A stretch of 59,567 bases of DNA, filler included, from Sanchytrium tribonematis (lineage: Eukaryota), in the NCBI GenBank assembly GCA_018985235.1. It is 7 parts of 7 records of this genome, joined end to end, with 100 filler letters (N's around TTAATTAATTAA, not from the genome) between each part and the next. Parts side by side here need not be neighbours in the genome. Positions count along the whole stretch, not along the records: positions 1 to 8,513 come from JADGIG010000374.1; positions 8,614 to 17,097 come from JADGIG010000375.1; 5 more parts are not named here. One strand, 5' to 3'. Made by a program: the position numbers and the translations under genes. Below the pieces are notes generated by a model. The model had not been told where the DNA came from and made no database searches. It worked only from the letters and a program-made list of their open reading frames with translations. Of the stretch, positions 2,794-46,120 are shown piece after piece; the first letter of the stretch is position 1; every line of letters starts with the position of its first letter.

Positions 2794-3868
2794 CTAATGT
2801 TGTTTAACAGCCATCATCCAAATCCGTGTCTTGTACACTTTAAACAAATCTCTCACCAATTCTCTGAAATCTATGCGACGATCCGCAATAAAATAAAATG
2901 TCAATTTTCTACGATCCCTAAATAAATATGAAATACCATTGATATTCACAATCTACGACAGTCATGGGTAATCCCATATCACTGGTTAATTTCATACAAT
3001 ATTGCAAAGCATCCATTTCTTCTTGTGATTTCGTAATTAACATGGTGACTTCACTAGGCTGTGCCATTCTGTAGATTTGACGCGGATGAATTTCATGATT
3101 GACCTTGTGTAAATCTGTTAATAAGCCACGCAATACTTCATTTTCAGACTCATCAGATAATTTCATCAAAATGTCTTTTGAGAGTGTATTTTGAAGAATT
3201 TTACCTAGATCTTTACCACGATCCCCTTCTACAATCACGAGTGTGTTTAAATCCATTAATTCACCCATATAATAAAATACATCAGATCTACCACCTTTAA
3301 ATTCAACCAAATAAAATACTTGCTCATTTGGAAAAGAATTGAGTGATTTACCATGTCCAATATCATGAATAGGCTGGATATCCATTAAAGAAGGATTGAT
3401 TAAATTGGCATAACCATTGGAGATGGATTGAGAGAGCGCGTGTGTCATTTTCGTATTTTGAGCCACTGGTGTGGGATGCAAAGAATGACGACGCACTGGG
3501 TTAGATGAAGTGCGTTTCTTGTCACTCCAGATGGATGGCATTCCCAATACGATGGATTTACTACGCTGTCTTTTCATTGGATCTTCATCATTTAAATCAC
3601 TTAATGGAGAATCGACTCTATCATATTTAGTAGGGGATGGATTGGGGTCTTGTAGACTCATATTACTTAATGCTTTAGTGATATCTGATTGATTTAAAGA
3701 GGAAAGGGATTGAGATCGATTAAATGGATGATATTGCAGGATTTGGGAGTATGATTTGGTGGGGGAGTCATTGGCATCATTTAATGGAGATTGCATCGAT
3801 GGATAGTCCATAGATGGGTTTAAATGATCTGTTAATGGACTAGTTGATTTCATATTGAGGGGGAACAT
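2794..3868 (-). CDS. PSP1: PSP1 C-terminal domain protein, two exons (3868-2937 and 2917-2794)
   Basis: YLVEFKGGRSDVF, VIVEGDRGKDLG and LPMTVVDCEYQW. Removing the 19-nt intron gives W-DRRKLTFYFIADRRIDFRELVRDLFKVYKTRIWM, the canonical PSP1 C-terminus. Confidence 0.9.
2918..2936 (-). other. 19-nt spliceosomal intron GTATTTCATATTTATTTAG
   Basis: GT...AG ends. It splits a TG|G Trp codon, and its removal restores EYQWDRRKLTFYF. Confidence 0.88.
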
Positions 3869-4244
3869 GTTTGGAAATATATGGATGGGGTGATTGGAGG
3901 ATGGGTGATTTATGGAATATTAAATGATGTGATTGGGTTAAAATTGATTTATTTGAGATTAATTCATTTGTGGGGATTACAAAGTGAAAATCAATTTGAA
4001 AATAGACTATCAATTTGAGATAAGAGAGATCTGTTTGAGATTGGCAAATTTGGGGAAATCAGGGTAGATTGGAAGAAATTGTCAATTCGAAGATACTTAT
4101 GTTTAAATTTATTAAATAAATACAAATAAATAACATGACACTGTTTGTATAACAATTGAATGAGATGAACTAGTCGTACTTGAATTATTTGAGCCACTTT
4201 TATGTGCAAGTTTTGATTCACCAGGTTGTTCATTGGGATGTTCA

Positions 4245-4574
4245 TCACGAAAAATAAGCAGTACATCCTTCTAAACAAGTTAAATCATCTCCACAAAGAC
4301 GTGTTAAACAATTAACTTCATCTGTTGAATTGCATTTTTCACATGCCATGTCTTTTTCAGATGCATTTGGACCAGTGAATCTCTTTGCATTTTGTTCATA
4401 TTCTGCTGCTGACATACTGGATGATACACAATCTCGTTTCGTAATTAAAGTCGTCGCATCTGAAGACGCACGATTGGCAATATCACTAGAATCTTGTGCA
4501 TTTTGAATAGCAGTACTCAAACTGGCATCCGTACAATCACTTTGTGCTATAATGATTGATGTGAATATCAACAT
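4245..4574 (-). CDS. Small secreted cysteine-rich protein
   Basis: MLIFTSIIIA signal-like start, a KR dibasic site (TKRDC) and a Cys-rich C-terminus. Confidence 0.6.
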   Translation of the reverse strand: MLIFTSIIIAQSDCTDASLSTAIQNAQDSSDIANRASSDATTLITKRDCVSSSMSAAEYEQNAKRFTGPNASEKDMACEKCNSTDEVNCLTRLCGDDLTCLEGCTAYFS

Positions 4575-4789
4575 TCCTTTTTCTTGCGGATACATGGACC
4601 AAATTGATGCACGTGTCTGGACCAATCAAATTAATATCAGCTCTATCCGAATATGGCGTTTAATTTATATAGCTTTACAATGTCATCAGAATAATCACTC
4701 GCTTGCAAATCTCTTAGGAAATCAAAAAAATTTCTCCATTGACCTGGTTCACCATTATACGGCTCCCTTTCAAACGAGCAACTATTTAT

Positions 4790-5797
4790 TTAAATTGGAA
4801 TGGGTTCAATGCCTGATGAATATTTGGATTCTGTCTTTCTTGACGTTACAGGATCGTTTTTGGAAGCCTTTAAAGTCTTAAAAGCATCATTTAAATCCTC
4901 AGCTGTAATACGTTGTGAACTATCATCAGCAGTCTCTACAGTCCCTTTCTTGACACGCTTAACCCGTGGTACTTTATGACCGATGCTTTTCCTTTTCCTA
5001 TTATCTTTTGGTGTCAATGCTTCAAATTTAGACATCCATGTATTTCCTACTACATTAAAATCTCTTCCTTCATGAGTTTTAAATCGATTATTTCCCATTA
5101 ATTGTAAAGAAATCAATAATTTGACTAATTGAAAATTCCCTGTTTCTTCCACATCTTCTTTCATATCATTTAACACTCTATTCCACACATGAATAGCCAT
5201 TTGTAATTGATTTTCTTGAATAAATTGATTGATATTTTGAATCATGATTTCAATATCCCCTTTTGTAATTTCGAATTGAAAATGATGTTGTTTCGTCCAA
5301 TTTATTTCACTATTGAATAGACTGGGTTGTAATTTATCGAGTCTGGACTGAAATGCTTTGGTCCAATATTCCACATAAAAAACCAAATCGAGGTATTTCA
5401 ATTGTATTACTTCGGAGAGGGATAATAAATTTCTGAATTTGTGTGAGCCATGACGCGTATATTGAATGAATTCTAATAATAAACCCAATTGTTGGTCATG
5501 ATTTTGTGTCATTTGAATCAATTGAATGCCCCATATGCGCATATGATTTAAAAATGAGATGTATTCTGTAGAAAATTCAAATGCATGACTACTACACAAT
5601 CTGATAAATCTCGTCGTCATGACATCCCATAAGAGGAGTGGGGTGGCATTTGGTTCATTTCTGTTATTTTTGACTAGAAATTTGAATAATGGAAATATTT
5701 GAGTGGATGAATAAGAGTATTTTGGATGGATTGTGGTTGGTTGTTGAGTGGATTGGATCATTGGGGATGTGAATACGCACATTAAAATGGAAATCAT
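4790..5797 (-). CDS. Secreted hypothetical protein, paralogue of 5895-6752, with a basic NLS-like tail
   Basis: MISILMCVFT leader; shares WNRV[L/I]NDMKED[V/L]E and Q..GN with its neighbour; C-terminal RKRK and RVKRVKK. Confidence 0.75.
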   Translation of the reverse strand: MISILMCVFTSPMIQSTQQPTTIHPKYSYSSTQIFPLFKFLVKNNRNEPNATPLLLWDVMTTRFIRLCSSHAFEFSTEYISFLNHMRIWGIQLIQMTQNHDQQLGLLLEFIQYTRHGSHKFRNLLSLSEVIQLKYLDLVFYVEYWTKAFQSRLDKLQPSLFNSEINWTKQHHFQFEITKGDIEIMIQNINQFIQENQLQMAIHVWNRVLNDMKEDVEETGNFQLVKLLISLQLMGNNRFKTHEGRDFNVVGNTWMSKFEALTPKDNRKRKSIGHKVPRVKRVKKGTVETADDSSQRITAEDLNDAFKTLKASKNDPVTSRKTESKYSSGIEPIPI

Positions 5798-5894
5798 TGT
5801 GTTTGATCCTAATTTAGCAGCGGGGCATTATCTGTAAATTGATTGGTAAAAGATGAAGATGTTTTATTCAAAGTTCAAATTCAATTTTAATGAT

Positions 5895-6752
5895 TCAGAT
5901 TTGCCAAATTCTCCGCTTTCTTTCTCCATTAGGATGTGTAGGAGCTTTTCTCTTGCTCGAATTCAGCACCTGTTCAACGTCATTTTCAAGTGATTTAAAT
6001 GCTTCAATTTGATCATTCGCATTAATTAATTTAAAGTTTCCAGCTTGTTGTATTTCCTTCAATTTTTGAAAGATATCCAAGTCTTTTGGATCTTTTGAAT
6101 CTTCTAAATCTTCTTTCATATCATTAATGACTCTATTCCACATTCTAAGAGGAGATAATGAATTTTCTTTCCTCAAATCTGGCACTATGTGACCAATAAA
6201 GTCATGTACAAATTGAATTCTGTCTTCATGAAAAGAAAACTCCACAATTGGTTTCCAATTTAATAAATCATTTAAAATGAATTCAGGGTTCAATAATACT
6301 ATAAGTTTTAATCTTGTTTTTAATTCGTTCCTCCAAGACTTGTAATAATCACATTCATCAGATGGCAATTCCTCAAATGAATTCAATTCTAAAAGTTTTA
6401 AAAACTGATTACCAGACACATGTGGTTGAAGCAAATACAACAACATCCACAATTGGCTTTCTCGTAAATCTTTATCATCTTCTTTTACAGCTTCTTGGCC
6501 AGTAACCCAAATCAGTTTTATGAATTCACATTTTACATTAGGAGGATCTCTTTTATTGCAGGATTGATGTAATACTTTAAACATGGTATTCCATACAGAT
6601 AGTGGACTGATAGTTTTTGAATCATATGGTACTGTTTTAATTTTATCTCGATACAATTTGAGAATTGGAGTTATTTTATAATCTGGAAATGGAATAATTT
6701 GACGTACATGAGTCATTGGAATCGCAAATATGCAAATGATAATGAAAATCAT
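5895..6752 (-). CDS. Secreted hypothetical protein, paralogue of 4790-5797, with a bipartite NLS-like tail
   Basis: MIFIIICIFA leader; internal repeat SPLSVWN / SPLRMWN; C-terminal KRKAPTHPNGERKRR. Confidence 0.75.
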   Translation of the reverse strand: MIFIIICIFAIPMTHVRQIIPFPDYKITPILKLYRDKIKTVPYDSKTISPLSVWNTMFKVLHQSCNKRDPPNVKCEFIKLIWVTGQEAVKEDDKDLRESQLWMLLYLLQPHVSGNQFLKLLELNSFEELPSDECDYYKSWRNELKTRLKLIVLLNPEFILNDLLNWKPIVEFSFHEDRIQFVHDFIGHIVPDLRKENSLSPLRMWNRVINDMKEDLEDSKDPKDLDIFQKLKEIQQAGNFKLINANDQIEAFKSLENDVEQVLNSSKRKAPTHPNGERKRRIWQI

Positions 6753-6910
6753 TGTGTTTGATCCTTTTAGACGGAGAAGGATTTTTGTGCATCGTTGTGA
6801 AACATCATCGGATAGTTCACGCTATTAATTGGGTTGTTATTTATTTATTCAACATATTACAAGAATACGGAATAACTAATAAAGTCAAGAAATTTCAAAC
6901 CCATCTATCA

Positions 6911-7477
6911 TCATTTAATTAGTAAATGTTATTATTATCTATCATAATTCCGCCAATTTTTGCTTCTTTATCTCTTCATCTTGTTTTCTTCTATTAGATT
7001 TGCACTTGCTCTTCTTTCTATTCATAAAAGCATCATCTTTTTTACTTAAATATCCCACAAGCAAATTCATTTCTTGTTGATTTGATTTTACCCATTGTCC
7101 ATTGATATTGTCCATTGATATTTTTCAATTTTCTATATTTATTTGACAACTAAAAGCCATCTTTTATAATATCCTGTAATAATATTGTGAGTGGACATTT
7201 TATTTCACAAATATAAAATAGTTTCATTTTTAAGTCCCGTTTTACAATTCGCAGCACGTCTTGATGTATTACGAGTAGATTTTACCCTTCCTTTATAAGC
7301 AATCTCTAGTTCATTAAATGATTTTTCTTGCAAATTTAATTCTTCCTCATTTGATTTCACCCATTTCCATAGAGCAAATAACATTGAGTTTGATCCCCAA
7401 AACAAATTAGCAGCGGAGTAGGAATCACACCATATTGTTTCAACGTGACTCTCTAAATATTCTAGAAATATTCGCAA
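6911..7477 (-). pseudogene. Two degenerate related ORF fragments, possibly Tc1/mariner transposase C-terminal remnants
   Basis: WKWVKSNEEELNL (ORF 7205-7477) and QWVKSNQQEMNL (about 7060-7100) are similar. Stops and a 13-bp tandem duplication interrupt the second. Weak resemblance to the transposase tail at 53363-53575. Confidence 0.35.
7094..7119. repeat. 13-bp perfect tandem duplication (ATTGTCCATTGAT x2)
   Basis: Read directly at 7094-7106 and 7107-7119. Confidence 0.9.
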
Positions 7478-7491
7478 TGTTGTATGATTTA

Positions 7492-8505
7492 TTAAATAAC
7501 CCGTCTTTGATTTCTTTCATATTCCTCTTTATTTTTAAAATTTTCAACTGTTTTCCATCTAGATCCAAATAAATGCTTAATGGCAGTGAAATCAGTACAT
7601 GTATGATCCACATCGCCTGCTATTTCAGATGGTACATGTATTCCGCAATTAAACATATCTACAGATCCAATGAACACATCTCCAATTAAAATGGGAGATT
7701 TCATTAAAACAGTCAAATCTGAATAATATTGGGAAACGTGGTGATTGATGGCTCTTGTCATGACACCAGGACCAGTAGTATGTACAATTCGCTTAATATT
7801 TTCAAATTGAGATTGATTTTTGTGATAATTTGTGAAAATATCTTCAATGCAATTCATCAAGACAGGATGGCGTGGATTGCCACCAAATGTCCATTGGGTG
7901 ATTTGTATGGGTGCCGCGTATAAATGAGTCTTCCAATGCTTGAAATTAATAGCTTCTAAACCCACTATAAATTGGATTTTAGAGGGTTTTATCATTTTAT
8001 CAATTTTATTCGGCCATTCATCTGGATTCCTTTTCATAACAACATCTGAATCCATATAAATACCACCATGATGATAAATATATAAATATCTACAGAAATC
8101 GGATTTCATGACTCCAAATTTGAATGCGTTGAACATTTGCAAATATTTTGGATAATGGAATTTGATTAATTGTGCACAATCTGTGTCATTAAAGATGACT
8201 AATTCATAATCGGTGTATTGTAAAGTGGATATAAATGATTTTTGAGCAAATTGATCGAAATTTGTAGATATTTTTGATTTTACACTCGTGTAGATCACTT
8301 TATTGGTCAATTCAAATGGATAATCTAATGATTGATAGACTTGTGGATAGTTATTAAAGTGTATGGTGTCGTATTTGAAGTGATAAAGTGGCAATATTTG
8401 GATATAAATGGATATGATTGCAAATATCAAAATGGCAATTTTGAATGGGTTTAATTTGATGATGCGTATTAGATTTCTTGCATTTGATGTTGAATGAAGC
8501 AACAT
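7492..8505 (-). CDS. GT32 (Och1-like) alpha-mannosyltransferase, type II membrane protein
   Basis: N-terminal TM; KSDFCRYLYIYHHGGIYMDSD (DxD), IVGLE, QITQWTF...HPVL, TGPGVMT and HLFGSRWK. Confidence 0.88.
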   Translation of the reverse strand: MLLHSTSNARNLIRIIKLNPFKIAILIFAIISIYIQILPLYHFKYDTIHFNNYPQVYQSLDYPFELTNKVIYTSVKSKISTNFDQFAQKSFISTLQYTDYELVIFNDTDCAQLIKFHYPKYLQMFNAFKFGVMKSDFCRYLYIYHHGGIYMDSDVVMKRNPDEWPNKIDKMIKPSKIQFIVGLEAINFKHWKTHLYAAPIQITQWTFGGNPRHPVLMNCIEDIFTNYHKNQSQFENIKRIVHTTGPGVMTRAINHHVSQYYSDLTVLMKSPILIGDVFIGSVDMFNCGIHVPSEIAGDVDHTCTDFTAIKHLFGSRWKTVENFKNKEEYERNQRRVI

Positions 8506-8513
8506 TGGGTTTG

Positions 8514-8613
8514 NNNNNNNNNNNNNNNNNNNNNNNNNNNNNNNNNNNNNNNNNNNNTTAATTAATTAANNNNNNNNNNNNNNNNNNNNNNNNNNNNNNN
8601 NNNNNNNNNNNNN
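8514..8613. other. Artificial contig spacer N44-TTAATTAATTAA-N44
   Basis: Six-frame stop linker flanked by N runs, identical at six positions. Confidence 0.99.
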
Positions 8614-8615
8614 AT

Positions 8616-9734
8616 AATTTAGATGCTAAAACTGTTGCAAAGGAAATTTCCCAAATAACAGAGTTTGATCCGCAGTTGGGATCTCGACTCGCTGAATGGC
8701 TTGTTAAGGAGAATTGCATAGAAGAAGGCATTGTAGTTATGCTGAAAATGGGAGAATTTGATCGAGCTTTTAAGCTAGCTTTCGGGCACCAATGTTTTGA
8801 ATTTTTATTTGATAATATTTTAAAGTATAAATTAAATGGGTCTCAATACCAAGACCTGGGAAATCAATTTTCCGCACATAATTTGTATGAACAAGGTGGT
8901 ACAATGTTTTTGCTAGCAGGGAAATATGAACAAGCCTTGAAACTATTTCTTTCTTGTAAAGAAAAAGGGCTAGACTTAGCTCTTGTAGCAGCTAAAAAGT
9001 CTAACGACAAAAATTTGATAAACTACTTTATTAACACCCTCATTGATGACAGGAACGACTATTTTTCTAATGCTAGTCTTTATTTGCCTTTTTTTGTGTC
9101 CCTGGGAAGAATTGAAGCTGCAACCCCAATTTGTTTAAAATTTGGAAATAAGGAACTAATGACTTCCAATCATTTGAAAGCTCGCCAAATATACAATGAG
9201 TTTATAACTACATTGACTATTCAGCGTAAACTCATACCAAATGAAGTTTATGGTGGACTTTATATCAGTCAAGCATATCTTTCCTTAAAAAAGCTGATCG
9301 AGATAGATCAAGAATTGGACGTAGCAAATTTGCTAACTTTTATCTTGGCAAGGCTGGAGTATTTTCAAAAGTACGAGATGTCTGTTCTGACAAGTGCCAT
9401 GATTTATTACCACAAGGTTGGAATGAAAAAAGAAGCATATCAGCTAGCTCAAAGACTTCTTCTTCGAAATGATATTAATGAGCAATTTCGAAGGAAAACA
9501 GAAAACATTGCTAGAAAGCCCACTGTGGAAACTTTAGAAATGGCTATAGTGAATTGTCAATCATGTCATTCTTCGAACAAATTCTCGGAAATATATTGTC
9601 AAAATTGTAAAAGTGTAATTCATAGATGCATGCTTACATTTAAATCACTGGATAATCCAAAAACATGTAAAAAGTGCAACGTATTTTATGGAAATTCTAT
9701 AGAATCTTGCATAATTTGTGAAAATTTATTATAA
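8616..9734 (+). CDS. WDR19: IFT-A subunit WDR19/IFT144, C-terminal part (5' truncated)
   Basis: Frame open from the contig start. TPR-like helices; VLTSAMIYYHKVGMKKEAYQLAQRLL...FRRKTENIARKP resembles the WDR19 LTSTVIEC..GLK..A...KIE..VRRP block, followed by a C-terminal CxxC zinc cluster. Confidence 0.78.
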   Translation, partial: NLDAKTVAKEISQITEFDPQLGSRLAEWLVKENCIEEGIVVMLKMGEFDRAFKLAFGHQCFEFLFDNILKYKLNGSQYQDLGNQFSAHNLYEQGGTMFLLAGKYEQALKLFLSCKEKGLDLALVAAKKSNDKNLINYFINTLIDDRNDYFSNASLYLPFFVSLGRIEAATPICLKFGNKELMTSNHLKARQIYNEFITTLTIQRKLIPNEVYGGLYISQAYLSLKKLIEIDQELDVANLLTFILARLEYFQKYEMSVLTSAMIYYHKVGMKKEAYQLAQRLLLRNDINEQFRRKTENIARKPTVETLEMAIVNCQSCHSSNKFSEIYCQNCKSVIHRCMLTFKSLDNPKTCKKCNVFYGNSIESCIICENLL

Positions 9735-9744
9735 AATCTAGAAA

Positions 9745-11801
9745 TTAATTTCCAGCAGATGCATTTTTTGCGGCTTTAATAGTTGGTGTCAAGGATAATA
9801 GACTTTCAGCTTTTAGTAAAAATTTGTGTTGTAACAATTCACTTGTGGTCGCTCTTTTGTCGGGATCCACTTCCAAGGACCTGCTTAAAAAGTCCTTCAA
9901 ATCGGGCGACAATTGTTGAGGGTTTTGTAACTTTGGAGTTCCATTAGTTGCAATTAGATAGAGAGCCTAAATTATTGTGTTAATACTCTTAAAGGATTTT
10001 CGTTTAAATATGGCGGTTCACCTTCAATCATTTCAATAGCCATTATACCCAAACTCCAAACATCGATTTTCGGACCATAAGTTTTTCTTGTAACTACTTC
10101 TGGCGCCATCCAATAAGGTGTTCCTACCATAGTGCTCCTTTTCGTATTTGGTTCTCCCAATTGTGCACAAAATCCAAAATCTGTAAGCTTCACTGATCCA
10201 TCGAGGCCCAAAAGAACATTATCGGATTTAATATCTCTATGTATTATATTTCGAGAATGCAAATGCTGAAGTCCTTGAAGAGTTTCTCTAGAAATAGCAG
10301 CAATCTGGCCTTCCGTTAGAACTGAGTAAGTCACAACGTCTGTCAATGGACCGCCTTCCATGTATTCCATAACAACCCAAAGATCTCCTTTCCATATATA
10401 CGAATCTACAAAATTAACAATATTTTTGTGTTGAGCATCTTTCATTACCAATATTTCATTAATAATTAGGTCCTTCTTTGGCTGTGCCTCTAAATTCATC
10501 TGTTTTAAAGCAACAACTTGGTTTGTTCCCAACTTGACTCCACTGAAAACACCTCCGGATGCTCCTTGGCCGATTTTTTTTAAATTGGTGTATATTTTTT
10601 GAGGGTCCGATTCTTGACATATTTCCTTTAGTTTTAAAATGACGTCTTTAGTGGAGGGCTTTGGATTATTAGATTGTTTTTTCAATGGGGGTGCTGGTTG
10701 TTGAGTCAATTTTTCTTTGGAGTCGGAAATGTCTTTGCCGGTTTCTTTGATGTCGTTCTCAACAGGCTTCTCGGCAAACTTATGGGCTTGATTTGTGGAT
10801 TTGTTCTGAGATGTATCTAGTTTGGCGTTTACGGTTCCCGGCTTTGGTTTCACGAATTCTTCCGGCTTTATTGCCAATTTTGACTCGTCTTGAAATAAAA
10901 CTTTCTGAGGAGTATCGTCTTTCTTAAGATCGTTAGAAAATACAGTCAATGTATGATTCGGTCGCTCTGGCGGAACTGGCTTTTTTTCTGTTAATTTATC
11001 AGTCGCATTTTCTTTTTCCTCTTTTAGAACTACTGGAGTAACTTTTTTCTCTGCCACTTTATCAACTGTAGCCATGTATTTGCCAGGTTGCGCTGCTTCT
11101 TCAGTCTCTTTCTTAGAGTCAGTATAAAACCCTATAATGTCAAGAACAGCCTGAGGATTAGCTGTCTGCTCTTGTTTAGAAATTCCAGAAGCTTTTATCA
11201 AGTCTTCCCAGGATCTTGGTAATCCTGTGAACTCTCCAGTTTCCGTATTGAATCCTACGTGGGTTACATGAACAGGATTAAAAGGGCCTGAAATTACAAC
11301 CCCAGGTTTATCGGAGACCTCGTCTTTACTTTTGACAGTACCCACTAAGGTTTTTAATGTTTTGGATAATCCAGCACTTTTATTTTCCTTGTTCCGCACA
11401 GTTCCAGATTCCACTAAATTCGGATTTGACTGAGCTGAATTGAATGCGCTTTTTATATCATTGACAGCTACAATATTTTTCTTCTTATTGTCTTTAAAGG
11501 AATTATTTCTCAAAAACTCGTCAGGATCCTCGGAATTTTTGGTCGCCGGCGTCTCTTTTGAAATTTTTGTATTCTCGGGTCTATCTGGTCGTGGTGGGGG
11601 CTTCGGCTTTCCTTTCTTATCTGACAAGTTATTCTCCAAAGAACGAGATCTTGTCATATTCGCGTCTATTTGAACACCACCAGAATTAGATTTAGACTTT
11701 GGCAATTGACTATTGTCAAAAGATGACTTGTTATCTGATGGGCGGGGTGGGGGTACTATATTTCTTTCTACGTTTTTTGGATTTGAATTTTGATTTGACA
11801 T
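9745..11801 (-). CDS. STE20: p21-activated kinase (STE20/PAK), two exons (11801-9987 and 9966-9745)
   Basis: [18 protein letters not shown]; kinase [17 protein letters not shown] and GTPYWMAPE. Removing the 20-nt intron restores [17 protein letters not shown]...DPDKRAT. Confidence 0.95.
9967..9986 (-). other. 20-nt spliceosomal intron GTATTAACACAATAATTTAG
   Basis: GT...AG, phase 0. Removal restores the conserved PAK sequence [12 protein letters not shown]. Confidence 0.92.
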
Positions 11802-11891
11802 TTATGAAACTGTCGACGAAATCTCAGTGGCTTGTGAAATTTGAGAATTTGGCGTAAACGAGATTATCTTGGTTGAAAAATCAGCTCATAT

Positions 11892-12740
11892 TTATTTCGA
11901 ACTATTTCCAGAATAACGGTTTAAGTCAGACTGGCATGCTACTCCTAAAACAAATTTTCCATTTATATCAGTTATAAAAGCAACGGGATATGTTTTCAAA
12001 AAATTTTCCAATTCATGTAAAGATGTCTCTGGAGTAATTTTGATAAATTGACGTTTTGGTCTTTTCGTGTATATCTCCCCAATTAATAAATTGGGATCGA
12101 CTTTTAGAAGACTATCTCGGCATACCCATCCAACAAGCTTCTTATTCTCTGTTACCGGCATATACGTAAAGTCGCATTCTTCCATCAATTTTAGAGTGTC
12201 ATTAACAGTCATAACTTTGTTTGCAATTATTGCGTGTGGAAGTTGAAGATCTTCAACAATCGCACCCGTGAAGCCTAATTTTGGTATAATTATACCGTTT
12301 TCAAGCAAATAATTTTTGTTTAGTAGAGTACTGTAATACAAATAACAAGTGTCAATAATTAAGCAATCCAAATTCTTTTCCTGTGCATAAACATACGCAC
12401 TAATGCTCTGTAACCCGATAAAAATGCCTTTTTTGTATAAAGTGTAGCAATGCTTTAGCATTGCGTTATATGGAAGTATGGGTGCAAAGGAATGATTTGG
12501 AAAAGCCTGCTCTAAGTAAATATCTTTTGGTAAAACTGTTTCGTTGGAAATTTTAGTCGATAGAAAGTCTTTCAGTTTACGTGCAATAACAGAAGAGTCT
12601 ACAGGAGATCCCATTTCATTTGTATCCGTTACTTGTAGCACATCGAGATAATCAGCTGTTACATTGCAATTAACATTCTTTCCTTTTTGAAGTAATGCCA
12701 ATGCTAGCAATGGATGAGAGGTATTTAAGCTGTTAGGCAT
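11892..12740 (-). CDS. CBS-domain pair protein resembling a degenerate cystathionine beta-synthase C-terminal half
   Basis: LIIDT..YYSTLLNKNYLLENG followed by VEDLQLP..I...TVNDTLKLM...DFTYMPV...LVGWV (CBS pair). Start Met uncertain. Confidence 0.6.
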   Translation of the reverse strand: MPNSLNTSHPLLALALLQKGKNVNCNVTADYLDVLQVTDTNEMGSPVDSSVIARKLKDFLSTKISNETVLPKDIYLEQAFPNHSFAPILPYNAMLKHCYTLYKKGIFIGLQSISAYVYAQEKNLDCLIIDTCYLYYSTLLNKNYLLENGIIIPKLGFTGAIVEDLQLPHAIIANKVMTVNDTLKLMEECDFTYMPVTENKKLVGWVCRDSLLKVDPNLLIGEIYTKRPKRQFIKITPETSLHELENFLKTYPVAFITDINGKFVLGVACQSDLNRYSGNSSK

Positions 12741-12796
12741 GTCTTCGTAATCTAATTGATGATAAATAGTTGGGAAAAAATTCATTTTCTCCTTTG

Positions 12797-15700
12797 ATGC
12801 AAAGAATTTGCACCCTGCTGGAAGAAAACAAGGCTGTCAATTTGACCAACCTTGCAAAAATTTTAAACAAAACAGATGGCGTTGGACAAGCCTGCGTCCT
12901 TAAAGCTTACAGATTACATCATGAAAACTTAGATTCAGCCGTTTTAGAAACTGTGCAATGGAATTGTACACGCAATTTGTTACTAATGCTACTACCTCTG
13001 CTAAATACCGAACAGCTTGAATGGTTAAAATGCAATTTTGAAAGTGAAAGCCTAACTTTAATATCAAATCTAGAAAAAGGAAAAAATGAACCATATGCAA
13101 CCAAGTTAGTGTCATGCTATTTTGATAAATTATCGTCTCCTCACAGACTAAGACTTTACCAGGCAGCTGATGATCTGCGTATTTATAGTTACAGTCTGAA
13201 ATACAATCAAACCAAAGAATATGTAAATTGCATAATTGACGAAATTGGAGAAATTAATGCTTTGGTGGTGATTAAGTCAATTGACATACAATTACTAGAG
13301 CACCTTTGGGAAAATACATCAAATGAGAGAGTTTTAAACGAAATTTGTAAAATATCTGCCACCGGTATCAATGGATGGAGGGAGAAGAAATTTGCGATCT
13401 CTCAAAATACAGCAAAAGCATTGCTTAAAAACAGGCAGAATTGGGAGGGTCAAGCTTTGATATATACCCAGCTACTAGAATACGAGGTTGTTTTAAAGTT
13501 AAAAAATTCTACGCCCTTGTCGAAAATTGACTCTGAACTCTCAAAGGCATTCCAATTTAAACCGTTTGAAATTACTTCCAATTGCTTTTTAACAAGTTCT
13601 TGTCTTTCACTGTTTACGAATTTTATGGAAGCTAGTAACAACACCTCTCATGTATGTGGACCACTAGCTTACAAGTGGATCAAATCTAGCATTTTTACTG
13701 CTATTTTAATGGATGAAATCTCAAAATTGAAAACATTTTTAGATATAAAATTTGATTTGATTTTAACGCAGCAATTGATGTCTGACCTCAAAGTCTTATA
13801 TCAGCTTTGCAAACTATGGATCAAAATGAAATCAGCTGGAATTTATAGTCTTTCAAAGATTCAAATTCCGAAAATATCAGACTTTGATATTGAAAAATTT
13901 GCACAATTTGTCTCTAGTTTTTATGATAATACCCCACTACTAGGACACGCATATCAGAGCATATTTAATTTTGAGATCAATGAAGCTATGGAGTCGTTTG
14001 ACAAGATCCTCGCATCTCCACCTTCTGATATTGTTGATAAAATAGCGCTTTATGAATCATTTTATGTGCTTTTACCTTTCCTTTATATGGTCAAGTCTCC
14101 CAAGATTTTACAAAGTTTAGCAACTGGAATTATCAAAAAATTTGAAGGCAAGAAAATGAAAATAAGATGTGCAAAAATACAGTATTGGATCAACTTGTTA
14201 TCCATAAAAAGAAAAAGACTTAAATTTGATGACATTAGTGAAGCCACCGAGCTCCCTAACCAACTTCTGAAATTTGATTTAATTGGCGAAGAAAGCCCAG
14301 CTGAATCATTAAAATTTTTAGAACATCTCAACATTAAAAAATTTCCACAAATAATAAGTTGGCTTCACGATGACAACTTAGAGCTTTTTTATAGGCAATG
14401 CAAGTATGGGAGTCCAGGGAGAGTTAAAATAAATGCTCCGTTGAGTATTAGTCTGTTTGAATACAACAAAATCAAGTACAACAGTTATGCAGATCAAGCC
14501 AAATCGTACTTCTCTAATCTACAACTACATTCCGAATGGATTTTAAATTCTCTCTTAATATATCCTTCAGGGTGTTGTGGGAAAATAGCAAACCATATTC
14601 TAAAATTTCTAAATTCCTTTCTAGATTTTTGCAACAATATGTTGGACGTAGCCTGCTTTTTAGACAGTGCGTTTTTGCAGCTAATTGTTTCCACAATCTT
14701 GAACATTGGATTGATTTTGCACTACTCTGAAAACTTAAATTTGAAAGAACTAATTCTTAGAGTGACTCCCTGGATAAATTGTTCATATTTGGACGCTCCA
14801 GATTTGCGGACTATTTGTGTTCCAACCGGAAACATCAACTCTGAGATTTTATTCATTGTCCCATGTCAAATAACCAATTGTTTAATTTTCTTATTTGACC
14901 AAAAAATGATTCGAGTTCCGTTTGATTTAAACATTGAAAATGATAGTCTTAAAAGCGTTTTTGATTTTCTCAAGTATTTTCAATTATTAATTCAAGAGGG
15001 AGAGTCTACAATACGGCGAAAACTTGATCCTTCAGAATGGTGGGAATGTCGCAAAAAAATTGACCTGGACATTCAAAATGCTTTAGCTCTACTGAATTAC
15101 AGGGTTGAAATAGGCCTATCAATATTAAATTTAGTGCATGGCAGAATCATTCCAAAATCAACCTATTGTGAGGAATTGCTTTCCTTGTACTTAGACTATT
15201 TTCATGTCGATCTTGTTTATTCAGAGAACAAATTGAATTGCGCACTCAAGACTCTATTCATTGTGTTAGACCAGAGATTATTTGGCGTGCCATTCGAAAG
15301 CTTAGAATCTATGGAGCAGATGTCTATATACAGAGTTCCTCATTCTTACTTTTCTTCGCGAATTTACACCACTTCTTTGGGTTCCGGGTCGTTTATACTA
15401 AATCCGAGTGCTGATTTGGCTAAAACTGAGCAGCGTTTAGAAATGAAATTTAAACATATAGGATGGAAGAGATTCCGCAAAAAAGTTGATCAGGATGCAT
15501 GGTTTTCTTTGCTTGATGAAAACATATTCGTGTACTCGGGACATGGAGCAGGTGAAAAGTATTACAATCCAACAGATCTAGTCAAATTCCAATCTAATTC
15601 TGTTGTAATGTTACTTGGTTGCTCTAGCCTTAAATTGATAGATTATGGAATCGGATCAAGAAGTATTTATGAGAATTATTTGCAAATCGGTTGCAAAGCT

Positions 15701-15886
15701 GTCGTGGGCACACTTTGGGATGTAACTGACAAGGATTTAGACGTTCAAACAATTTCGCTGATTGACGGACTTCAATTTGGAAAGGACCTTGGTATGGCGG
15801 TACAGGAGAGCAGAGCAGAATTGAAATTGAAGTACCTAAATGGTAGTGCATTAATTGTATGTGGATCCCCAGTTTATTTTGAATAG
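12797..15886 (+). CDS. ESP1: Separase (peptidase C50), compact form
   Basis: WWECRKKID, PFESL, FILNPSADL..T, YSGHGAG (His), LLGCSS (Cys), GTLWDVTDKDLD and LKYLNGSA. First ATG at 12797. Confidence 0.93.
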   Translation: MQRICTLLEENKAVNLTNLAKILNKTDGVGQACVLKAYRLHHENLDSAVLETVQWNCTRNLLLMLLPLLNTEQLEWLKCNFESESLTLISNLEKGKNEPYATKLVSCYFDKLSSPHRLRLYQAADDLRIYSYSLKYNQTKEYVNCIIDEIGEINALVVIKSIDIQLLEHLWENTSNERVLNEICKISATGINGWREKKFAISQNTAKALLKNRQNWEGQALIYTQLLEYEVVLKLKNSTPLSKIDSELSKAFQFKPFEITSNCFLTSSCLSLFTNFMEASNNTSHVCGPLAYKWIKSSIFTAILMDEISKLKTFLDIKFDLILTQQLMSDLKVLYQLCKLWIKMKSAGIYSLSKIQIPKISDFDIEKFAQFVSSFYDNTPLLGHAYQSIFNFEINEAMESFDKILASPPSDIVDKIALYESFYVLLPFLYMVKSPKILQSLATGIIKKFEGKKMKIRCAKIQYWINLLSIKRKRLKFDDISEATELPNQLLKFDLIGEESPAESLKFLEHLNIKKFPQIISWLHDDNLELFYRQCKYGSPGRVKINAPLSISLFEYNKIKYNSYADQAKSYFSNLQLHSEWILNSLLIYPSGCCGKIANHILKFLNSFLDFCNNMLDVACFLDSAFLQLIVSTILNIGLILHYSENLNLKELILRVTPWINCSYLDAPDLRTICVPTGNINSEILFIVPCQITNCLIFLFDQKMIRVPFDLNIENDSLKSVFDFLKYFQLLIQEGESTIRRKLDPSEWWECRKKIDLDIQNALALLNYRVEIGLSILNLVHGRIIPKSTYCEELLSLYLDYFHVDLVYSENKLNCALKTLFIVLDQRLFGVPFESLESMEQMSIYRVPHSYFSSRIYTTSLGSGSFILNPSADLAKTEQRLEMKFKHIGWKRFRKKVDQDAWFSLLDENIFVYSGHGAGEKYYNPTDLVKFQSNSVVMLLGCSSLKLIDYGIGSRSIYENYLQIGCKAVVGTLWDVTDKDLDVQTISLIDGLQFGKDLGMAVQESRAELKLKYLNGSALIVCGSPVYFE

Positions 15887-17097
15887 TTTCTGAACAACTT
15901 CCACGCAATAATTAAACACGATAGTCCAAGTACAGATGCAATTTTAACAGTATTGTTTGGTATTTCTGGAAGGGTGTGCTTTAATCTTTTCATCCATTCC
16001 TTCTCGGTTTTGGTTGGGAATTTTTGCGGTATAAAATGTTCTAGATGGGTAGACACATTAGAAAATGGTTCAAAAATCCCACACGATACCCCAGCACAGT
16101 ATGCGCAACCAAATGCAGTTGTCTCCCTCATATTAGGCCGCAAAATTGGAATTTGTAACACATTGCTCTGAATTTGAATCAAACAATTTGAATTTGAAAC
16201 CCCACCATCGACTTTTAGCTGACTTACTTTCAGTCTCGATTCCACTTCCATTTCAAGAACCAAATGCTTGACTTGGATAGCTACAGATTCAAAAAAGGCT
16301 CTGGCTATATTTCCTTTGTTACTTGATGTTGTCAAGTTGAAGAAAGCAGCTTTTGCATTTGGCTCCCAGTATGGTGCGAAAAGGCCCGACAACGCCGGTA
16401 TTATAACGACTCCATCGCTCGATTTCACTAAATCTGCCTGAGCGCCTACTTTAAGAAAAATTACTTATATCTCTACCATCTTTGAACAATCCCAAGCTTT
16501 GAAACCAGGTGATAGCCGAGCCAACATTAGCAACTGCACCAATGCTGCTTGCTGATCCCCTAATATTCCACAAACAGAAATGCCCTTATACACTTCGTAG
16601 CGCAGCGATCCAAATTTAGAATCTGAAGAGCAAATCGAGGCTAGTTTTAAATTTTCCAAACCGAATAACTTTAAGGCTGAGAGATCCCATTTCCCGGAGT
16701 TTATGTTCATGAGCATAGTCCTACTGGCGTTTGTTACATCGGTCTTATATTCCCCAGTTAATTTCCATAATAAAAATGTATCCACTGTGCCCAATCTCAA
16801 ACTACCATTTTCGTAAGCTTCTTTTATTTTTCGATTGTTTCTTATCATCCACACAATTTTCAAGGCGCTAAAATATGTAGAAAAATTAAGTCCTGTTAAT
16901 TTTTGTAGATAATTTTTACCATACTTTTTAATAAACTCATTCATTAGCTCACTAGTTCTTGTATCGTACCACAATATAGCTTCATCATAGACTGTCCCGT
17001 CGGCATTCCAGAACACTGTAGTTTCTCTCTGATTTGCTATTCCAATAGTCGCAATTTTTGGATTCGATGCTACAGGAGAAGGCTTTTTTGATGGACA
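15874..17097 (-). CDS. GUT1: Glycerol kinase (FGGY), 5' truncated, with a 19-nt intron and an apparent internal frameshifting deletion near 16540
   Basis: GIANQRETT, ILWYDTRT, YFSALK, TDVTNASRT, GDQQAAL, PALSGLFAPYW, VDGG and ETTAFG; C-terminal TM anchor. The KNTYGTG...YALE segment is absent. Confidence 0.88.
16446..16464 (-). other. 19-nt spliceosomal intron GTAATTTTTCTTAAAGTAG
   Basis: GT...AG, splits an A|GC codon. Removal joins AITWFQSLGLFKDGRDI to SAQADLVKSSDGVVIIPALSGL in frame. Confidence 0.82.
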
Positions 17098-17197: not shown

Positions 17198-18676
17198 TCT
17201 ATAATCTTTCCATGTTAGCCGTTTTGGTGAAGCAGATCTTGCATTTCCAGAATCTTTTTGCTCGTATCTAGTTGAGTCGACTTCAATTTGAAGATTGGGT
17301 TTCCGCTTCGATTCTCTTGAGTCCACAATTCCGCTCAAATGGAATTCTAGATGAGACCTCATTTGGTCAAAATATGGTCGAGTGGTATCTATCTGTAGTT
17401 CATCTGGGTTAGAAATATTTGTAACTATATCTCGGGATAATAGAGGCTTTTCTTCGCTGATTTCTGATTCCTGATGTCTAAATATGCTTTTGATCCATGG
17501 AGAATTTTGCATTGGTGAAAAGACCTCACTCTTCATTAAATTTTCATAATCTTTCCATTCCATTTCATTTTGATAATCTAATTCTTGATCTTCCGGTAGT
17601 TCTTTTATACTTTCCAAAGAGGCTACAGGTGACGATGATCTTTCTTTTAAATTGGATTTGGCTGTTGAAAAGCTGCGCGATATTTGCTTCTTCTTTTCAA
17701 TCACATTCTCCGATAGACTTTTAAGCTTTGGATTACTTGTTGCCTTTGAGACCCTTTCAGTAGACACTTTCGCACTTTCTGGCTTAAAGCTAGATTTTGA
17801 GACTTTAGTATTCTTTAAATTATTGTTTTCTAATACTTTTTTCAGCTCTAATATTTCTTCCTTTAAATCTTGAAGTTCTGCCCTTTCATCATCGACTAGT
17901 TTGACGCTATTTGACAGCTTATATTCTTTCACAATGTTATTTTTCATTTCTTCCCACTCTTGGAACCACAATTTTCTTTCTTCTGCAAGCTTCTCTTCAA
18001 AATCTCTTTGACTTATAGCTTCGGTCTTCGCTTGAGCGTTAGAAAGGACCTTCACCTGGTTGTCCGTGTTTGCAATTTGACTGCTAAGAACAGTAAGAGC
18101 TTCTGTGATTTTTTCCAATAAAGGATCTGATTTCCTAGATTTCGAAAATTCGCCTTTGTTTTCATAAAACTCTGACAAGCAGTCGCCGTGTCTTCGTTTT
18201 ATATGTCCTTCAAGAAAGGACTCACTGGTAAATGTCTTTGTGCAAAAATCGCATTTATAATATGCACTTACTTGATTAGATGGTAATTTGTGAGCCATTT
18301 GATATGCATAAACAGTTTTCTTTAGCATTTTGTTTTCTTTTTTCAAATCGTCAAATTCAACCGAATGATTACTTTTATTTTTTTGTGATTGATTCAATTG
18401 CTCTTCTAATTGTATGAGCTTATATTCAGTTTCTTGATTCTTTTGGATAAGCGTATTATTGTTTTGAAGTAGATAGTCATTTGTCATCTGTGATAATTTG
18501 AAGAGTTTGACCAAGTTTGAATCTTGAAAATCTTCCTTTTCAACATTACAGTAAGTTATCATGTCAATATACTGGCGCAACTCTTGAGATGCGTTCTCCC
18601 TTTCAATTTTTTCTGGTGCTGCGTTCCCTAAAAGTTTCCAGTTAATTTCTTGTTTCTTTGGTTTGAAAGAAAACAT
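17198..18676 (-). CDS. DZIP1: DZIP1/Iguana-like basal-body protein (3' truncated)
   Basis: Dzip-like N domain (FSFKPK..INWKLL...IERE...ITYC.VEKED...KLFKLSQ...YLL), coiled coil and the C2H2 finger CDFCTKTFTSESFLEGHIKRRH. Confidence 0.85.
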
Positions 18677-18699
18677 GGCCTACTATTTTCACTTAGATG

Positions 18700-23956: not shown

Positions 23957-24787
23957 TTATTTGTAATAACTATTGCTCAAAAAATCAGAATGTAAGCTAG
24001 AGTCTGGTGAATCATCCTGAATTAGAATTGATCCTGTATTCTGTGCAGACTGAATAAGTTTTCCTTTCTCAACAACTTCAACCAAGTCTCCAAAAAACAC
24101 AATGACAGCATTTATACGAATGATGTACGTCATTGACCGTATCCAGGAGATAGAAAAATGAAATTTTAGCAGAACCAGGATTTCTGAAGCCTCAATAAAG
24201 TACACTAATAACAAAGGAAAAAGAGTTTTTAAAATCCATTTTAAGTCGGGTTTTCCATCAAATAAAAGAACCATTTTCCGTAGTAAGATAGTCATGAGAT
24301 ATGTTTCTATGATCCACATAAGGAAGGTCAATGTTGAATACATTATAATCGTAGCAAATAAATAACTTTCATTCTTAAATGTCAGATTATATAACACAAT
24401 GAATGGAATATGTACAGTTACAACAATGAAAAACGCCAATAGAGCTCGCTTGTCTAGCCGGTTTAGTTTTGGAACAGTTTTAATGCGATAAAAGTATATC
24501 AAAAAGGTGCAACTAATTGTAATAAAATAAGTTAAGCTATCTAAAGTAATAAATACTAAACGTTTTCGAGGATCAATCCAGTCTGCTGTAATACTAAATA
24601 TGAGTCCCATTAAACTACAAATTAAACCGGTAATCATTAAATAATATGGCACTGATTTATGAGCCCTAAAAATTATATAACACTTCAAGCAACCATAAAT
24701 CCCGACTAAAATAGACAATACTAAAACTGTTGTTGCTCCGTACCTTTCATTTGGTGAAGTGTTGGGGGTGTTAGTAAGAATAGTCAT
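23957..24787 (-). CDS. Multi-pass (6-7 TM) membrane protein, GPCR-like
   Basis: Regularly spaced hydrophobic helices, a YFYRI motif after TM3 and a polar C-terminal tail. Confidence 0.7.
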   Translation of the reverse strand: MTILTNTPNTSPNERYGATTVLVLSILVGIYGCLKCYIIFRAHKSVPYYLMITGLICSLMGLIFSITADWIDPRKRLVFITLDSLTYFITISCTFLIYFYRIKTVPKLNRLDKRALLAFFIVVTVHIPFIVLYNLTFKNESYLFATIIMYSTLTFLMWIIETYLMTILLRKMVLLFDGKPDLKWILKTLFPLLLVYFIEASEILVLLKFHFSISWIRSMTYIIRINAVIVFFGDLVEVVEKGKLIQSAQNTGSILIQDDSPDSSLHSDFLSNSYYK

Positions 24788-42439: not shown

Positions 42440-42639
42440 GTTTTGTTTGAAAAAAGTTTTATTTTAAAAATTCCAAACACTATTTTGATAAGATTTCATC
42501 ATGTCGTAACTATCGAATTCTCGCTCGTTGATGCGAGTTCGTGAAATCAATGGATTTGTTTCTATATTGTGCACCGTTTTAAGCAAATAAACGACAATTT
42601 TTAAAGCATCTGGGCTAATTTAGCGAATATTACTGTTGG

Positions 42640-42739: not shown

Positions 42740-42867
42740 GCCATTTGGACGTGATAAAGGACTGCTTTAGCGTGATCTAATCCATGAGATGAGCAGACAC
42801 TGGATAATAATGTATCCAATTCTGAAATGATGGCATCCATTTGAAGATGGAATTGCGATTTGGTCAT
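42740..42867 (-). CDS. 5' end of a second HD-domain hydrolase copy (cut by the contig end)
   Basis: Near-identical to the start of 43672-44376 (SHGLDHAKAVLYH). Confidence 0.8.
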
Positions 42868-42955
42868 TTGTTTCAAGGTGGCAAAAATCAATTTATTTTT
42901 TAAAAAAAATGTTTCCGACCACCAGATTCCATTTTAGTGGCTTGACTGGTGATTG

Positions 42956-44408: not shown

Positions 44409-46120
44409 TTAAAAAAGATGTTTTCGACCACCAGATTCCATTTTAGTGGCTTGACTGGTAATCGTCATTTGATCAAAATGTTTTAAATGCAATCGCACTT
44501 TTGGACTCTTGAATTTCAACTTGGCAATGAATAATCCTATTCCAATCAATAAAATCACACATATAGCACCAATGATCCAATAAATGGCATATTTATCAAT
44601 TGTATCCGTGTGTTCAACATCGTCAACAATGGTAGGTTCATGAGAAGCAGATATTTCCACTAAGTAAGCAATAATTACCAGTTAAAGAGGTATAATATTC
44701 CATCAATGTCGTATTTAAGCTGAAAATAGTAATTGGTGGTCTTAACACTCGTGTAATTGGTGTGGGATCTACCTCGATTTGAGAAATTACATTAAGTTCA
44801 CTTGCTATTGATGAAGTTGACAGTAGCTGACTATTCTCGGATGTAATGGTGGAAACTGGCAGCTGACTTGTAGTTTTTTCAGCATTTGTCAATTTAAATA
44901 AATTCAAATGCTCACAAAATGGATACAATTTCTCCACATTTGTATTATTCAGTGTGGGCGTGCATGAAAGTTTACAATAAGTAAGTGTTGAGGTATCCAA
45001 TATGGTAATGTTGGAGATCAAAGTATTTGAAATGTCTAATTCATTGACTTGTTTCAAATAAATGGTACCAAATAAAAACTGATTGGAAAGCGTTAATCTG
45101 GATAAGGAATTTGGCAAAGCAGGTACAATACCTGTTAATTGGTTGTCATGCAGATATAGCAATGACAAACTGGCTGGAAGTGGTGGAATTTGACCAGTAA
45201 ACAAATTTCCTTGAAGCTGTAAATTCGTTAATGGAGAAATAAAATTGGGTTGAACATGGTAAAATGTGACATTGGAAATATCACCTGTCAATCTAGAGGA
45301 ATCAAATGTGATTTTTGTAGCAGTTGGTGGAAGAATAGGTAATTTGCCATAAAAGATATTATTATTTCCTAAAAACATTTGAATATTTGGTGGAAACAGG
45401 ACTGGTGCTACAATTTGATTAGAATCTAAATTGATATTAATCAAAGTATCTGGAAAGGGATACGTCAATCCTTGTAACTTGTTGACACAGGCATTAAAAC
45501 CACGCAATCCAGATGGCAATTTTGGAACGGTTTCCTTCAATTTGATTTTCACATATATCTAATACAGTGAGTGTATCTGGTAGATTGCTAAGATTTCCAT
45601 AAAAATGGTTTTTCTGAAATCTGGCAATTTCGAGTTTTTGAGGAAGATCATGGGGAAAGGGTTGTTTTAAATTGTTATAATTCAAATCCAATTTTGTCAA
45701 ATTCTTTGGAAAAGTGGTAAAATTGTTAAATTTGTTGCTGAAAATCAGCATTTCTAAAAGACAGTCAGGAAACACAGGAATCGTCCCGAAAAATTGATTT
45801 TCATAAATTTTAAATGTTTGAAGCGTGTCAGGATATCCAGTTGTTGGTAAATTTCCAGTCAATTGGTTGCTGCTCAAATCGAGAGTCACTAATTGATCTG
45901 GTAAATAAGCTTGAAATGTCCCATTTAAATTTAATCAATGCCAATCAATAGAATCAATCTTTCCCGCTACGCAAGTGACTCCAGTTACTACACCCGCGCA
46001 ACAATTTGTATTGATTTCGTTCATGATGGTTGGATTTGCTTGTGGCATTCCCAATCCAATTGCAAATTGTTTCAAGTTTTGACAATCTGTTAAAGCAGCA
46101 ATAATGACATTTAATAACAT
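44409..46120 (-). pseudogene. LRR type I membrane protein gene with one nonsense change and two frameshifts
   Basis: Fragments 46120-45935, 45889-45494, 45552-44638 and 44660-44409 assemble into signal, cap, LRRs, S/T stalk and TM. The TGA at 45935-45937 is GGA in the 42956-43477 paralogue. Confidence 0.8.

What the first reader, a model, noticed from the sequence alone, without database searches (positions are those of the whole stretch)
2918..16464. Ultra-short 19-20 nt spliceosomal introns in a fungus-like nuclear genome
Seen: three independent GT-AG introns: GTATTTCATATTTATTTAG (2918-2936, 19 nt, PSP1), GTATTAACACAATAATTTAG (9967-9986, 20 nt, PAK) and GTAATTTTTCTTAAAGTAG (16446-16464, 19 nt, glycerol kinase). 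None is a multiple of three, and removing each restores a conserved protein sequence. All start GTAWT and end T-W-A-W-K-TAG, with A fixed at -6 (candidate branch point) and no room for a polypyrimidine tract. No longer intron was needed for any recognised gene. Established: introns this small are known from chlorarachniophyte nucleomorphs, heterotrich ciliates such as Stentor, and Mikrocytos; typical fungal introns are several times longer. Inference: an independently evolved minimal, length-constrained splicing system in an early-diverging fungal or holomycotan lineage, which standard gene finders would miss.
Basis: partly seen in the sequence, partly recalled or inferred. Interest (0 to 1): 0.88.

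Follow-up and report, generated by a model that had tools for sequence, protein, structure and literature searches.

The report
Sanchytrid fungus with 19-20 base introns
Three genes of an alga-parasitising fungus (a sanchytrid) are interrupted by 19-20-base segments that look like ordinary introns, two of them at intron positions shared with other organisms; they are likely spliced out and would be the shortest fungal introns found in our literature search, but no RNA was available to show it.

Summary
Confirmed, on the minus strand. The window is seven joined contigs of a sanchytrid (Sanchytriomycota; nearest named proteins are Amoeboradix gromovi). Homology alone fixes the deleted lengths at 19 nt (PSP1), 20 nt (PAK) and 19 nt (glycerol kinase), and each is a GT-AG segment. 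The PAK and PSP1 breaks lie at positions where other eukaryotes have longer introns (42-78 nt). A second sanchytrid-like PAK reads through a 19-nt segment with A at -6; A. gromovi breaks at the same codon. Two more 19-nt candidates were found. The genome is intron-poor (0.06-0.10 per kb). An independent DNA run holds two of the segments unchanged. No RNA was available, so splicing and the branch point are inferred. 'Minimal spliceosome' is not supported: A. gromovi annotations include Prp8, SF3B1, U2AF and U1-70K. Tiny introns are a known kind. The published microsporidian minimum I found is 22 nt, and I found nothing on sanchytrid introns. This scan earlier noted 25-32-nt introns in Rozella, on other DNA. 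Verdict: new member of a known kind, likely a fungal record.

The parts
2918..2936 (-). 19-nt GT-AG intron, phase 2, in the PSP1-domain gene; position shared with many other eukaryotes
2937..3868 (-). PSP1 gene exon 1 (from the first Met); Pfam PSP1 positions 2-49
2797..2917 (-). PSP1 gene exon 2; Pfam PSP1 positions 50-86
9967..9986 (-). 20-nt GT-AG intron, phase 0, in the PAK/Ste20 kinase, with an in-frame stop; position shared with other eukaryotes and two relatives
9987..11801 (-). PAK exon 1 (PBD and kinase Pfam positions 1-201)
9748..9966 (-). PAK exon 2 (end of kinase domain)
16446..16464 (-). 19-nt GT-AG intron, phase 1, in glycerol kinase; a tandem AAG acceptor 3 nt upstream would give 16 nt but scores lower
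16465..17097 (-). Glycerol kinase upstream exon, cut by the contig end; about 157 nt missing at 16538-16540 relative to run X1
15877..16445 (-). Glycerol kinase downstream exon (FGGY_C)
44660..44678 (-). Candidate fourth intron, 19 nt, phase 1, with CTTAC around the -6 A; joins an LRR/stalk frame to a membrane-span frame in a gene copy that is otherwise broken
42615..42633 (-). Candidate fifth intron, 19 nt, 6 nt from a contig end; holds a stop in frame with an unidentified 49-aa downstream frame
   Evidence: identification failed

Best explanation
These 19-20-base GT-AG segments in a sanchytrid fungus are likely ordinary U2-type spliceosomal introns that shrank in place, and are predicted to be removed through a branch adenosine six bases from their 3' end. 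Shown: the segments, their GTAWT start, the invariant -8 T and -6 A, the TAG end, exact restoration of conserved protein by their removal, and shared positions for two of three. Inferred: the GTAWT pairs with U1/U6; U2 pairs weakly over positions -8 to -5 (TWAH, a degenerate YTRAY) and bulges the -6 A (position 14-15 from the 5' end), giving a 14-15-nt lariat loop. The acceptor is then set by a fixed 5-nt distance from the branch A, with no pyrimidine tract. Because the donor and branch signals are nearly adjacent, recognition is probably by intron definition with a length ruler, and the usual SF3a/b anchoring stretch upstream of the branch (recalled) cannot exist. The lineage lost most ancestral introns and kept a few, trimmed to about 19-21 nt.
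For: Homology alone picks 19/20/19 nt. PAK: 112 of 120 homologues continue without an insertion; 5 break at that codon, including the window and its two closest relatives; 3 lacked the motif. Of 77 metagenome loci, 14 had the motif: 10 uninterrupted, 4 interrupted there by GT, two of them by the same 78-nt GT-AG intron. PSP1: of 150 homologues, 95 continue, 29 end exactly at the split Trp as a phase-2 GT intron predicts, and 12 more diverge there with a T-initial residue (my count); three retain in-frame inserts of 42, 63 and 69 nt ending in Arg (AG|G). Relative P0125 reads through in the shifted frame; only a 19-nt length fits 11 of 11 downstream residues with AG possible, and its Tyr codon puts A at -6. 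A. gromovi P0126 reads VFSMLT-stop, which would give T at -8, A at -6 and 21 nt if the stop is the TAG acceptor. Run X1 contigs carry the PAK, glycerol kinase and 44660 segments without gaps. Core spliceosome proteins are annotated in A. gromovi.
Against: No RNA evidence of splicing and no lariat. Few cases: 3 firm and 2 candidates in 60 kb; the whole genome was not available. The branch motif is weak (TTTAT, ATAAT, TTAAA). The glycerol kinase test used 5 homologues, its best 19-nt deletion was not the GT-AG one (55.3 against 53.5 bits), no relative was found for it, and the gene has a second break in this assembly. The relaxed motif also hits an intact reading frame (24537-24556), so the motif alone gives false positives. 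The relatives' lengths come from translated protein, not DNA. No snRNA lies in the window. Broken genes without introns also occur here (FBXO9, LRR copies).
Confidence: 0.87

Rival explanations
1. Dead intron remnants: ancestral introns shrank below the splicing limit, are not removed, and the three genes are pseudogenes or give truncated proteins.
For: Other broken genes occur in the window (FBXO9 stop, LRR copies). Microsporidian tiny introns are spliced poorly (81% of junctions below 50%; PMC3629993). No RNA here.
Against: Downstream exons are open and conserved (Pfam 50-86 for PSP1; kinase end). The PAK break and the downstream residues persist in a relative whose protein has otherwise diverged. 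GT, -6 A and AG are kept in all cases.
Confidence: 0.05
2. The introns are real, but they are the short tail of a broader length distribution and the genome is not length-constrained.
For: Only 3-5 introns were sampled; stopless 3n introns and 5' UTR or first-exon introns escape frame-break detection; A. gromovi's length is uncertain.
Against: All 5 window cases and the 1 measurable relative are 19-20 nt; no longer intron was needed in about 52 kb of coding sequence. This rival overlaps the best explanation at the level of single introns.
Confidence: 0.2
3. Assembly or amplification artefacts (insertions, frameshifts), or ribosomal frameshifting or hopping across the segments.
For: This assembly has at least one probable structural difference in glycerol kinase and single-base breaks elsewhere.
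Against: One- or two-base fixes score below 19-20 nt removal; run X1 has the same segments; two relatives and many other eukaryotes break at the same codons.
Confidence: 0.02
4. Non-spliceosomal removal, like the roughly 20-nt Ire1-cut hacA intron of filamentous fungi (recalled) or tRNA-type endonuclease splicing.
For: Similar length only.
Against: GT-AG ends, positions shared with longer GT-AG introns, and no common fold around the junctions (-2.7 to -6.5 kcal/mol, differing structures).
Confidence: 0.02

Closest known systems
Chlorarachniophyte nucleomorph introns (Bigelowiella natans, 19 nt; passage in PMC2483917)
   Same: Same length class, spliceosomal.
   Different: A relic endosymbiont nucleus, intron-rich (recalled); here the main nucleus of a fungus, intron-poor.
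Stentor coeruleus 15-16-nt introns (PMC9505925, passages)
   Same: GUA start, AU-rich, putative branch A at position 10 of 15 or 11 of 16, that is -6; all snRNAs and U2AF kept.
   Different: 4 nt shorter, thousands of introns, a ciliate; lariat loop of 10-11 nt against 14-15 here.
Mikrocytos mackini 16-17-nt introns (PMC10245619, passages)
   Same: Parasite, few introns (224), narrow length, conserved sequence.
   Different: Rhizarian; shorter; RNA-confirmed; strongly reduced spliceosome, which is not apparent in A. gromovi.
Encephalitozoon cuniculi introns, 22-76 nt (PMC3629993, passages)
   Same: Fungal relative, intron-poor parasite, GT-AG, branch close to the acceptor.
   Different: Longer, strict branch motif, about 30 spliceosomal proteins and no U1 snRNA identified; a separate lineage, so an independent shrinkage (inferred).
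Yarrowia lipolytica fixed branch-to-AG distance (PMC2483917, passages)
   Same: Fungus with no pyrimidine tract and the branch A fixed at -6.
   Different: Long introns (median 204 nt) with a strong ACTAAC consensus.
Myxobolid myxozoan introns, median 22-27 nt (PMC13644364, introduction and part 1 of 2 of results)
   Same: Opisthokont parasites; ancestral positions shrunk in place; U2 and U2AF kept; no pyrimidine tract.
   Different: Animals; slightly longer; branch A position drifts from the AG with length, whereas here it stays at -6 in 19- and 20-nt cases.

Membership tests
U2-type spliceosomal intron | GT...AG ends | tested here: met
U2-type spliceosomal intron | Exact removal restores the conserved reading frame | tested here: met
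   weakest for glycerol kinase
U2-type spliceosomal intron | Position shared with introns of other eukaryotes (supporting feature) | tested here: met
   PAK; PSP1; not shown for glycerol kinase
U2-type spliceosomal intron | Branch-point motif with a bulged A | tested here: inconclusive
   A at -6 and T at -8 in 5 of 5 window cases (two were picked by that motif) and A at -6 in P0125; weak match to WCTRAY; no lariat data
U2-type spliceosomal intron | Removed from mature mRNA via a lariat | not testable with these tools
   no RNA holder listed
U2-type spliceosomal intron | Organism encodes a major spliceosome | tested here: inconclusive
   Automatic annotations in the relative A. gromovi (file cut when stored; some KEGG numbers interpreted from recall); this genome not available; no snRNA in the window
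U12-type intron | Extended RTATCCTT donor (recalled consensus) | tested here: not met
   donors are GTATTT, GTATTA, GTAATT, GTAATT, GTAATA
Length-constrained tiny-intron genomes (Stentor, Mikrocytos, nucleomorph type) | Genome-wide narrow length peak below about 25 nt | tested here: inconclusive
   5 of 5 window cases and 1 relative at 19-20 nt; 60 kb only
Highly reduced spliceosome (microsporidian/mikrocytid type) | Loss of U1 and most accessory proteins | tested here: inconclusive
   A. gromovi rows annotated U1-70K (E 9e-13), U2AF subunits, an SF1-like KH protein and SF3B1 argue against it; no full inventory
Sanchytriomycota | Proteins group with Amoeboradix apart from other fungi | tested here: met
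   NMT 62% to A. gromovi against at most 44% for the rest listed; PAK kinase 92% against at most 77%; clade support 89/89, below the tool's star threshold. Contig 1 is tied in only through an unnamed 62% relative

The most novel reading that the evidence does not exclude
The whole phylum Sanchytriomycota splices only about 19-21-nt introns with a branch A fixed at -6: the shortest introns in Fungi and, by median, among opisthokonts (below the 22 nt of myxozoans and microsporidia). They are few, sit at ancient positions, and are handled by a spliceosome that still has U1, U2AF and SF3b and must therefore be remodelled to fit donor and branch helix side by side.
Probability: 0.55. Interest if true: 0.75.

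Novelty: new member of a known kind. Interest (0 to 1): 0.6.

Why it matters
It would add a further independent origin of introns under 21 nt, the first I could find in a true fungal phylum, whose sister group (Blastocladiomycota; PMC8371127) is intron-richer (Allomyces 1.30 introns per kb; PMC8476143). Because the PAK and PSP1 introns have 42-78-nt counterparts at the same codons elsewhere, the shrinkage can be traced intron by intron. A fungal spliceosome can be compared directly with yeast structures and its parts tested in yeast, which makes the lower limit of donor-to-branch distance testable. In practice, public sanchytrid proteomes were called as open reading frames on DNA (PMC8371127 methods), so intron-bearing genes are truncated there, which can affect gene-loss inferences.

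Tried and rejected
No whole genome is held, so there is no genome-wide length distribution or snRNA search. Sequencing-run search: no RNA holder listed. The metagenome scan with PAK returned no sanchytrid DNA (best full-length identity 72%). The glycerol kinase protein search (lengths 115-368 only) found no close relative. Candidate 24537-24556 (20 nt, motif match) rejected: removal breaks an intact 276-aa frame. Candidate 37327-37344 (18 nt, FBXO9) rejected: reading the TGA as X gives a gap-free Pfam match, residues 17-91 to profile 13-87, so it is a stop in coding sequence, not an intron. 8046-8063 lies inside an unbroken glycosyltransferase frame. Breaks in LRR genes at about 45500 and 52850 look like a one-base slip and a short duplication. 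The loose 15-40-nt motif is not enriched (12 seen, 8.3 +/- 3.1 expected). The peptide after candidate 42615 was not identified by Pfam, PDB or the Atlas. Literature: Sanchytrium+intron, sanchytri/intron/spliceosom (16), Amoeboradix+intron (51), Sanchytriomycota+spliceosome (80, 0 papers) and five searches on tiny or shortest introns found nothing on sanchytrid introns. The library lacks most subscription papers, and one supplement of PMC8371127 was unreadable and another cut. Earlier scan notes: none in this genome or on this sequence.
Full report
Observation. The three segments are at the stated coordinates on the minus strand, 19, 20 and 19 nt long. The window is not one stretch: six N-linkers separate seven contigs of 8,356-8,513 nt. 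PSP1 lies on contig 1; the PAK kinase and glycerol kinase lie on contig 2. No whole genome is held.

Organism. The N-myristoyltransferase on contig 5 has three relatives at 62-63% identity, one of them Amoeboradix gromovi; all others listed are at most 44%. The PAK kinase domain is 92% identical to A. gromovi (P0126) and to an unnamed protein (P0125), against at most 77% for other fungi. The three group in a 20-row tree with support 89/89, below the tool's star threshold. The window is thus a sanchytrid distinct from A. gromovi; I did not establish the species. Sanchytrids are fast-evolving algal parasites, sister to Blastocladiomycota (PMC8371127; abstract, passages and methods section 18 read). 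That paper predicted proteins as open reading frames on DNA contigs, still reached about 92% BUSCO, and has no 'splic' in its main text and 'intron' only in a reference title.

Are the segments required, and at that length? I scored every deletion of 0-61 nt near each break against a profile of homologues, ignoring splice signals. PAK (109 homologues, 3,966 deletions): 20 nt best at 152.7 bits, next 146.5; the GT-AG segment ties for first. PSP1 (95 homologues, 3,905 deletions): 19 nt best at 137.3, 16 nt 131.3, 1 nt 124.8; the GT-AG segment ties for first. Pfam agrees: profile positions 2-49 before and 50-86 after. Glycerol kinase (5 homologues): 19 nt best (55.3; 53.5 for the GT-AG segment), 16 nt 49.5, 1 nt 45.4. 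Simple frameshift errors therefore fit worse. Run X1, recorded as probably DNA, has contigs spanning the PAK and glycerol kinase segments without gaps; it may be the window's source and is not independent support of function. The same call shows about 157 extra bases in X1 at 16538-16540, so the window's glycerol kinase has a second break unrelated to the intron.

Are they at old intron positions? PAK: of 77 metagenome loci, 14 carried the motif before the break; 10 continue and 4 are interrupted exactly there by GT, two by the same 78-nt GT-AG intron. Of 120 protein homologues, 112 continue, 5 break there and 3 lack the motif. PSP1: of 150 homologues, 95 continue, 29 end at the split Trp, 16 diverge after the motif (one is the window; 12 begin with a T-initial residue as a phase-2 GT intron predicts) and 10 missed my motif. 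Three retain inserts of 14, 21 and 23 residues ending in Arg, that is 42-69 nt. Clusters that end at the Trp include Basidiobolus and Paraphysoderma members. For glycerol kinase no shared position was shown.

Relatives. P0125 runs past the PAK break in a shifted frame. Only a 19-nt length makes 11 of 11 following residues encodable with AG possible at the end (next best 6 of 11), and its Tyr codon places A at -6. A. gromovi ends VFSMLT-stop; if that stop is the acceptor TAG, the intron is 21 nt with T at -8, A at -6 and C at -5. This is compatible, not shown. The closest PSP1 relative (P0362, 62%) ends at the split Trp; length unknown.

More introns in the window. A pattern that I relaxed after seeing the data gives 6 against 0.35: it adds 44660-44678, which joins an LRR frame of 293 codons to an 82-codon membrane-span frame and is present in X1, though that gene copy is broken upstream; and 24537-24556, a false positive inside an intact frame. 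Long conserved genes (MSH6, DNA ligase, separase, a DEAD-box helicase, Cbf5, NMT) are single frames. Three to five introns in about 52 kb of coding sequence give 0.06-0.10 per kb, against 1.30 for Allomyces, 2.53 for Rozella and 0.04 for Saccharomycotina (PMC8476143 Table 1, passages). Stopless 3n introns would be missed.

Mechanism. Shown: GTAWT donor, T at -8, A at -6, TAG acceptor, 19-20 nt, no shared fold. Inferred: U2-type splicing with the -6 A as branch, a 14-15-nt lariat loop, and acceptor choice by fixed distance from the branch. Precedent for the geometry: Stentor's putative branch A is at position 10 of 15 or 11 of 16 (PMC9505925, passages), and Yarrowia fixes the branch 2 nt before AG without a pyrimidine tract (PMC2483917, passages). 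The A. gromovi annotation table lists Prp8, SF3B1, U2AF, Brr2, Prp22, U1-70K and an SF1-like protein (supplementary file 4, searched, cut when stored; identities of some KEGG numbers recalled), so nothing yet points to a minimal spliceosome. No snRNA is in the window. No RNA run was listed, so splicing itself is untested.

Comparison and novelty. Tiny introns are known: Stentor 15-16 nt, Mikrocytos 16-17 nt (PMC10245619, passages), Bigelowiella nucleomorph 19 nt, Encephalitozoon 22-76 nt (PMC3629993, passages), Rozella about 30 nt (PMC6349667, passages), myxozoans median 22-27 nt (PMC13644364, introduction and first part of results). Nine searches found no report on sanchytrid introns or on fungal introns under 22 nt; PMC10459994 has none (term search) and PMC10158995 added nothing (passages). 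The library is incomplete. Earlier notes of this scan cover 25-32-nt introns in Rozella and short introns in Neolecta, none in a sanchytrid. Verdict: a new member of a known kind, likely the shortest introns yet seen in a fungus. Confidence that they are spliced introns 0.87; that the phylum is length-constrained about 0.55-0.7; interest 0.6.

Noticed in passing
window 16538-16540: Glycerol kinase lacks about 157 nt here relative to a contig of run X1, which causes a frameshift in the window; probably an assembly error or a deletion allele.
   Followed up: partly
window 37338-37340 (+): In-frame TGA inside the F-box protein FBXO9/Hrt3-like gene; Pfam FBO_C aligns across it without a gap. Nonsense allele or error; TGA also ends 9 of 29 long frames, so no code change.
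   Followed up: partly
window 42959-46060 (-), 51214-58918 (+): Expanded family of secreted or membrane-anchored LRR proteins with Cys-rich caps and Ser/Thr stalks; several copies have stops or frameshifts, and X1 shows further paralogues. Possible host-interaction family.
   Followed up: no
window 43675-44442 (-), partial repeat at 42740-42933: 256-aa frame with an LLHDADD motif that looks like an HD-domain hydrolase (recalled; no Pfam hit), interleaved with LRR copies and locally duplicated.
   Followed up: no
window 8614-17097: Run X1 shows many two-allele sites at about half depth, as in a heterozygous or mixed sample.
   Followed up: no
window 8616-9731 (+), 17201-18679 (-): Cilium-related genes (IFT-type TPR protein, DZIP1-like) in a lineage with a reduced flagellum.
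   Followed up: no
window 46377-48206 (-): 610-aa frame without Pfam hit whose C-terminus has H...D...Q...C motifs that resemble a Ulp1/C48 cysteine protease (recalled).
   Followed up: no
window 59496-59567 (+): 5S rRNA gene cut by the window end.
   Followed up: no
window 11895-12836, 12770-15883, 15877-16464: Very compact layout: neighbouring frames abut or overlap (CBS protein, separase, glycerol kinase).
   Followed up: no
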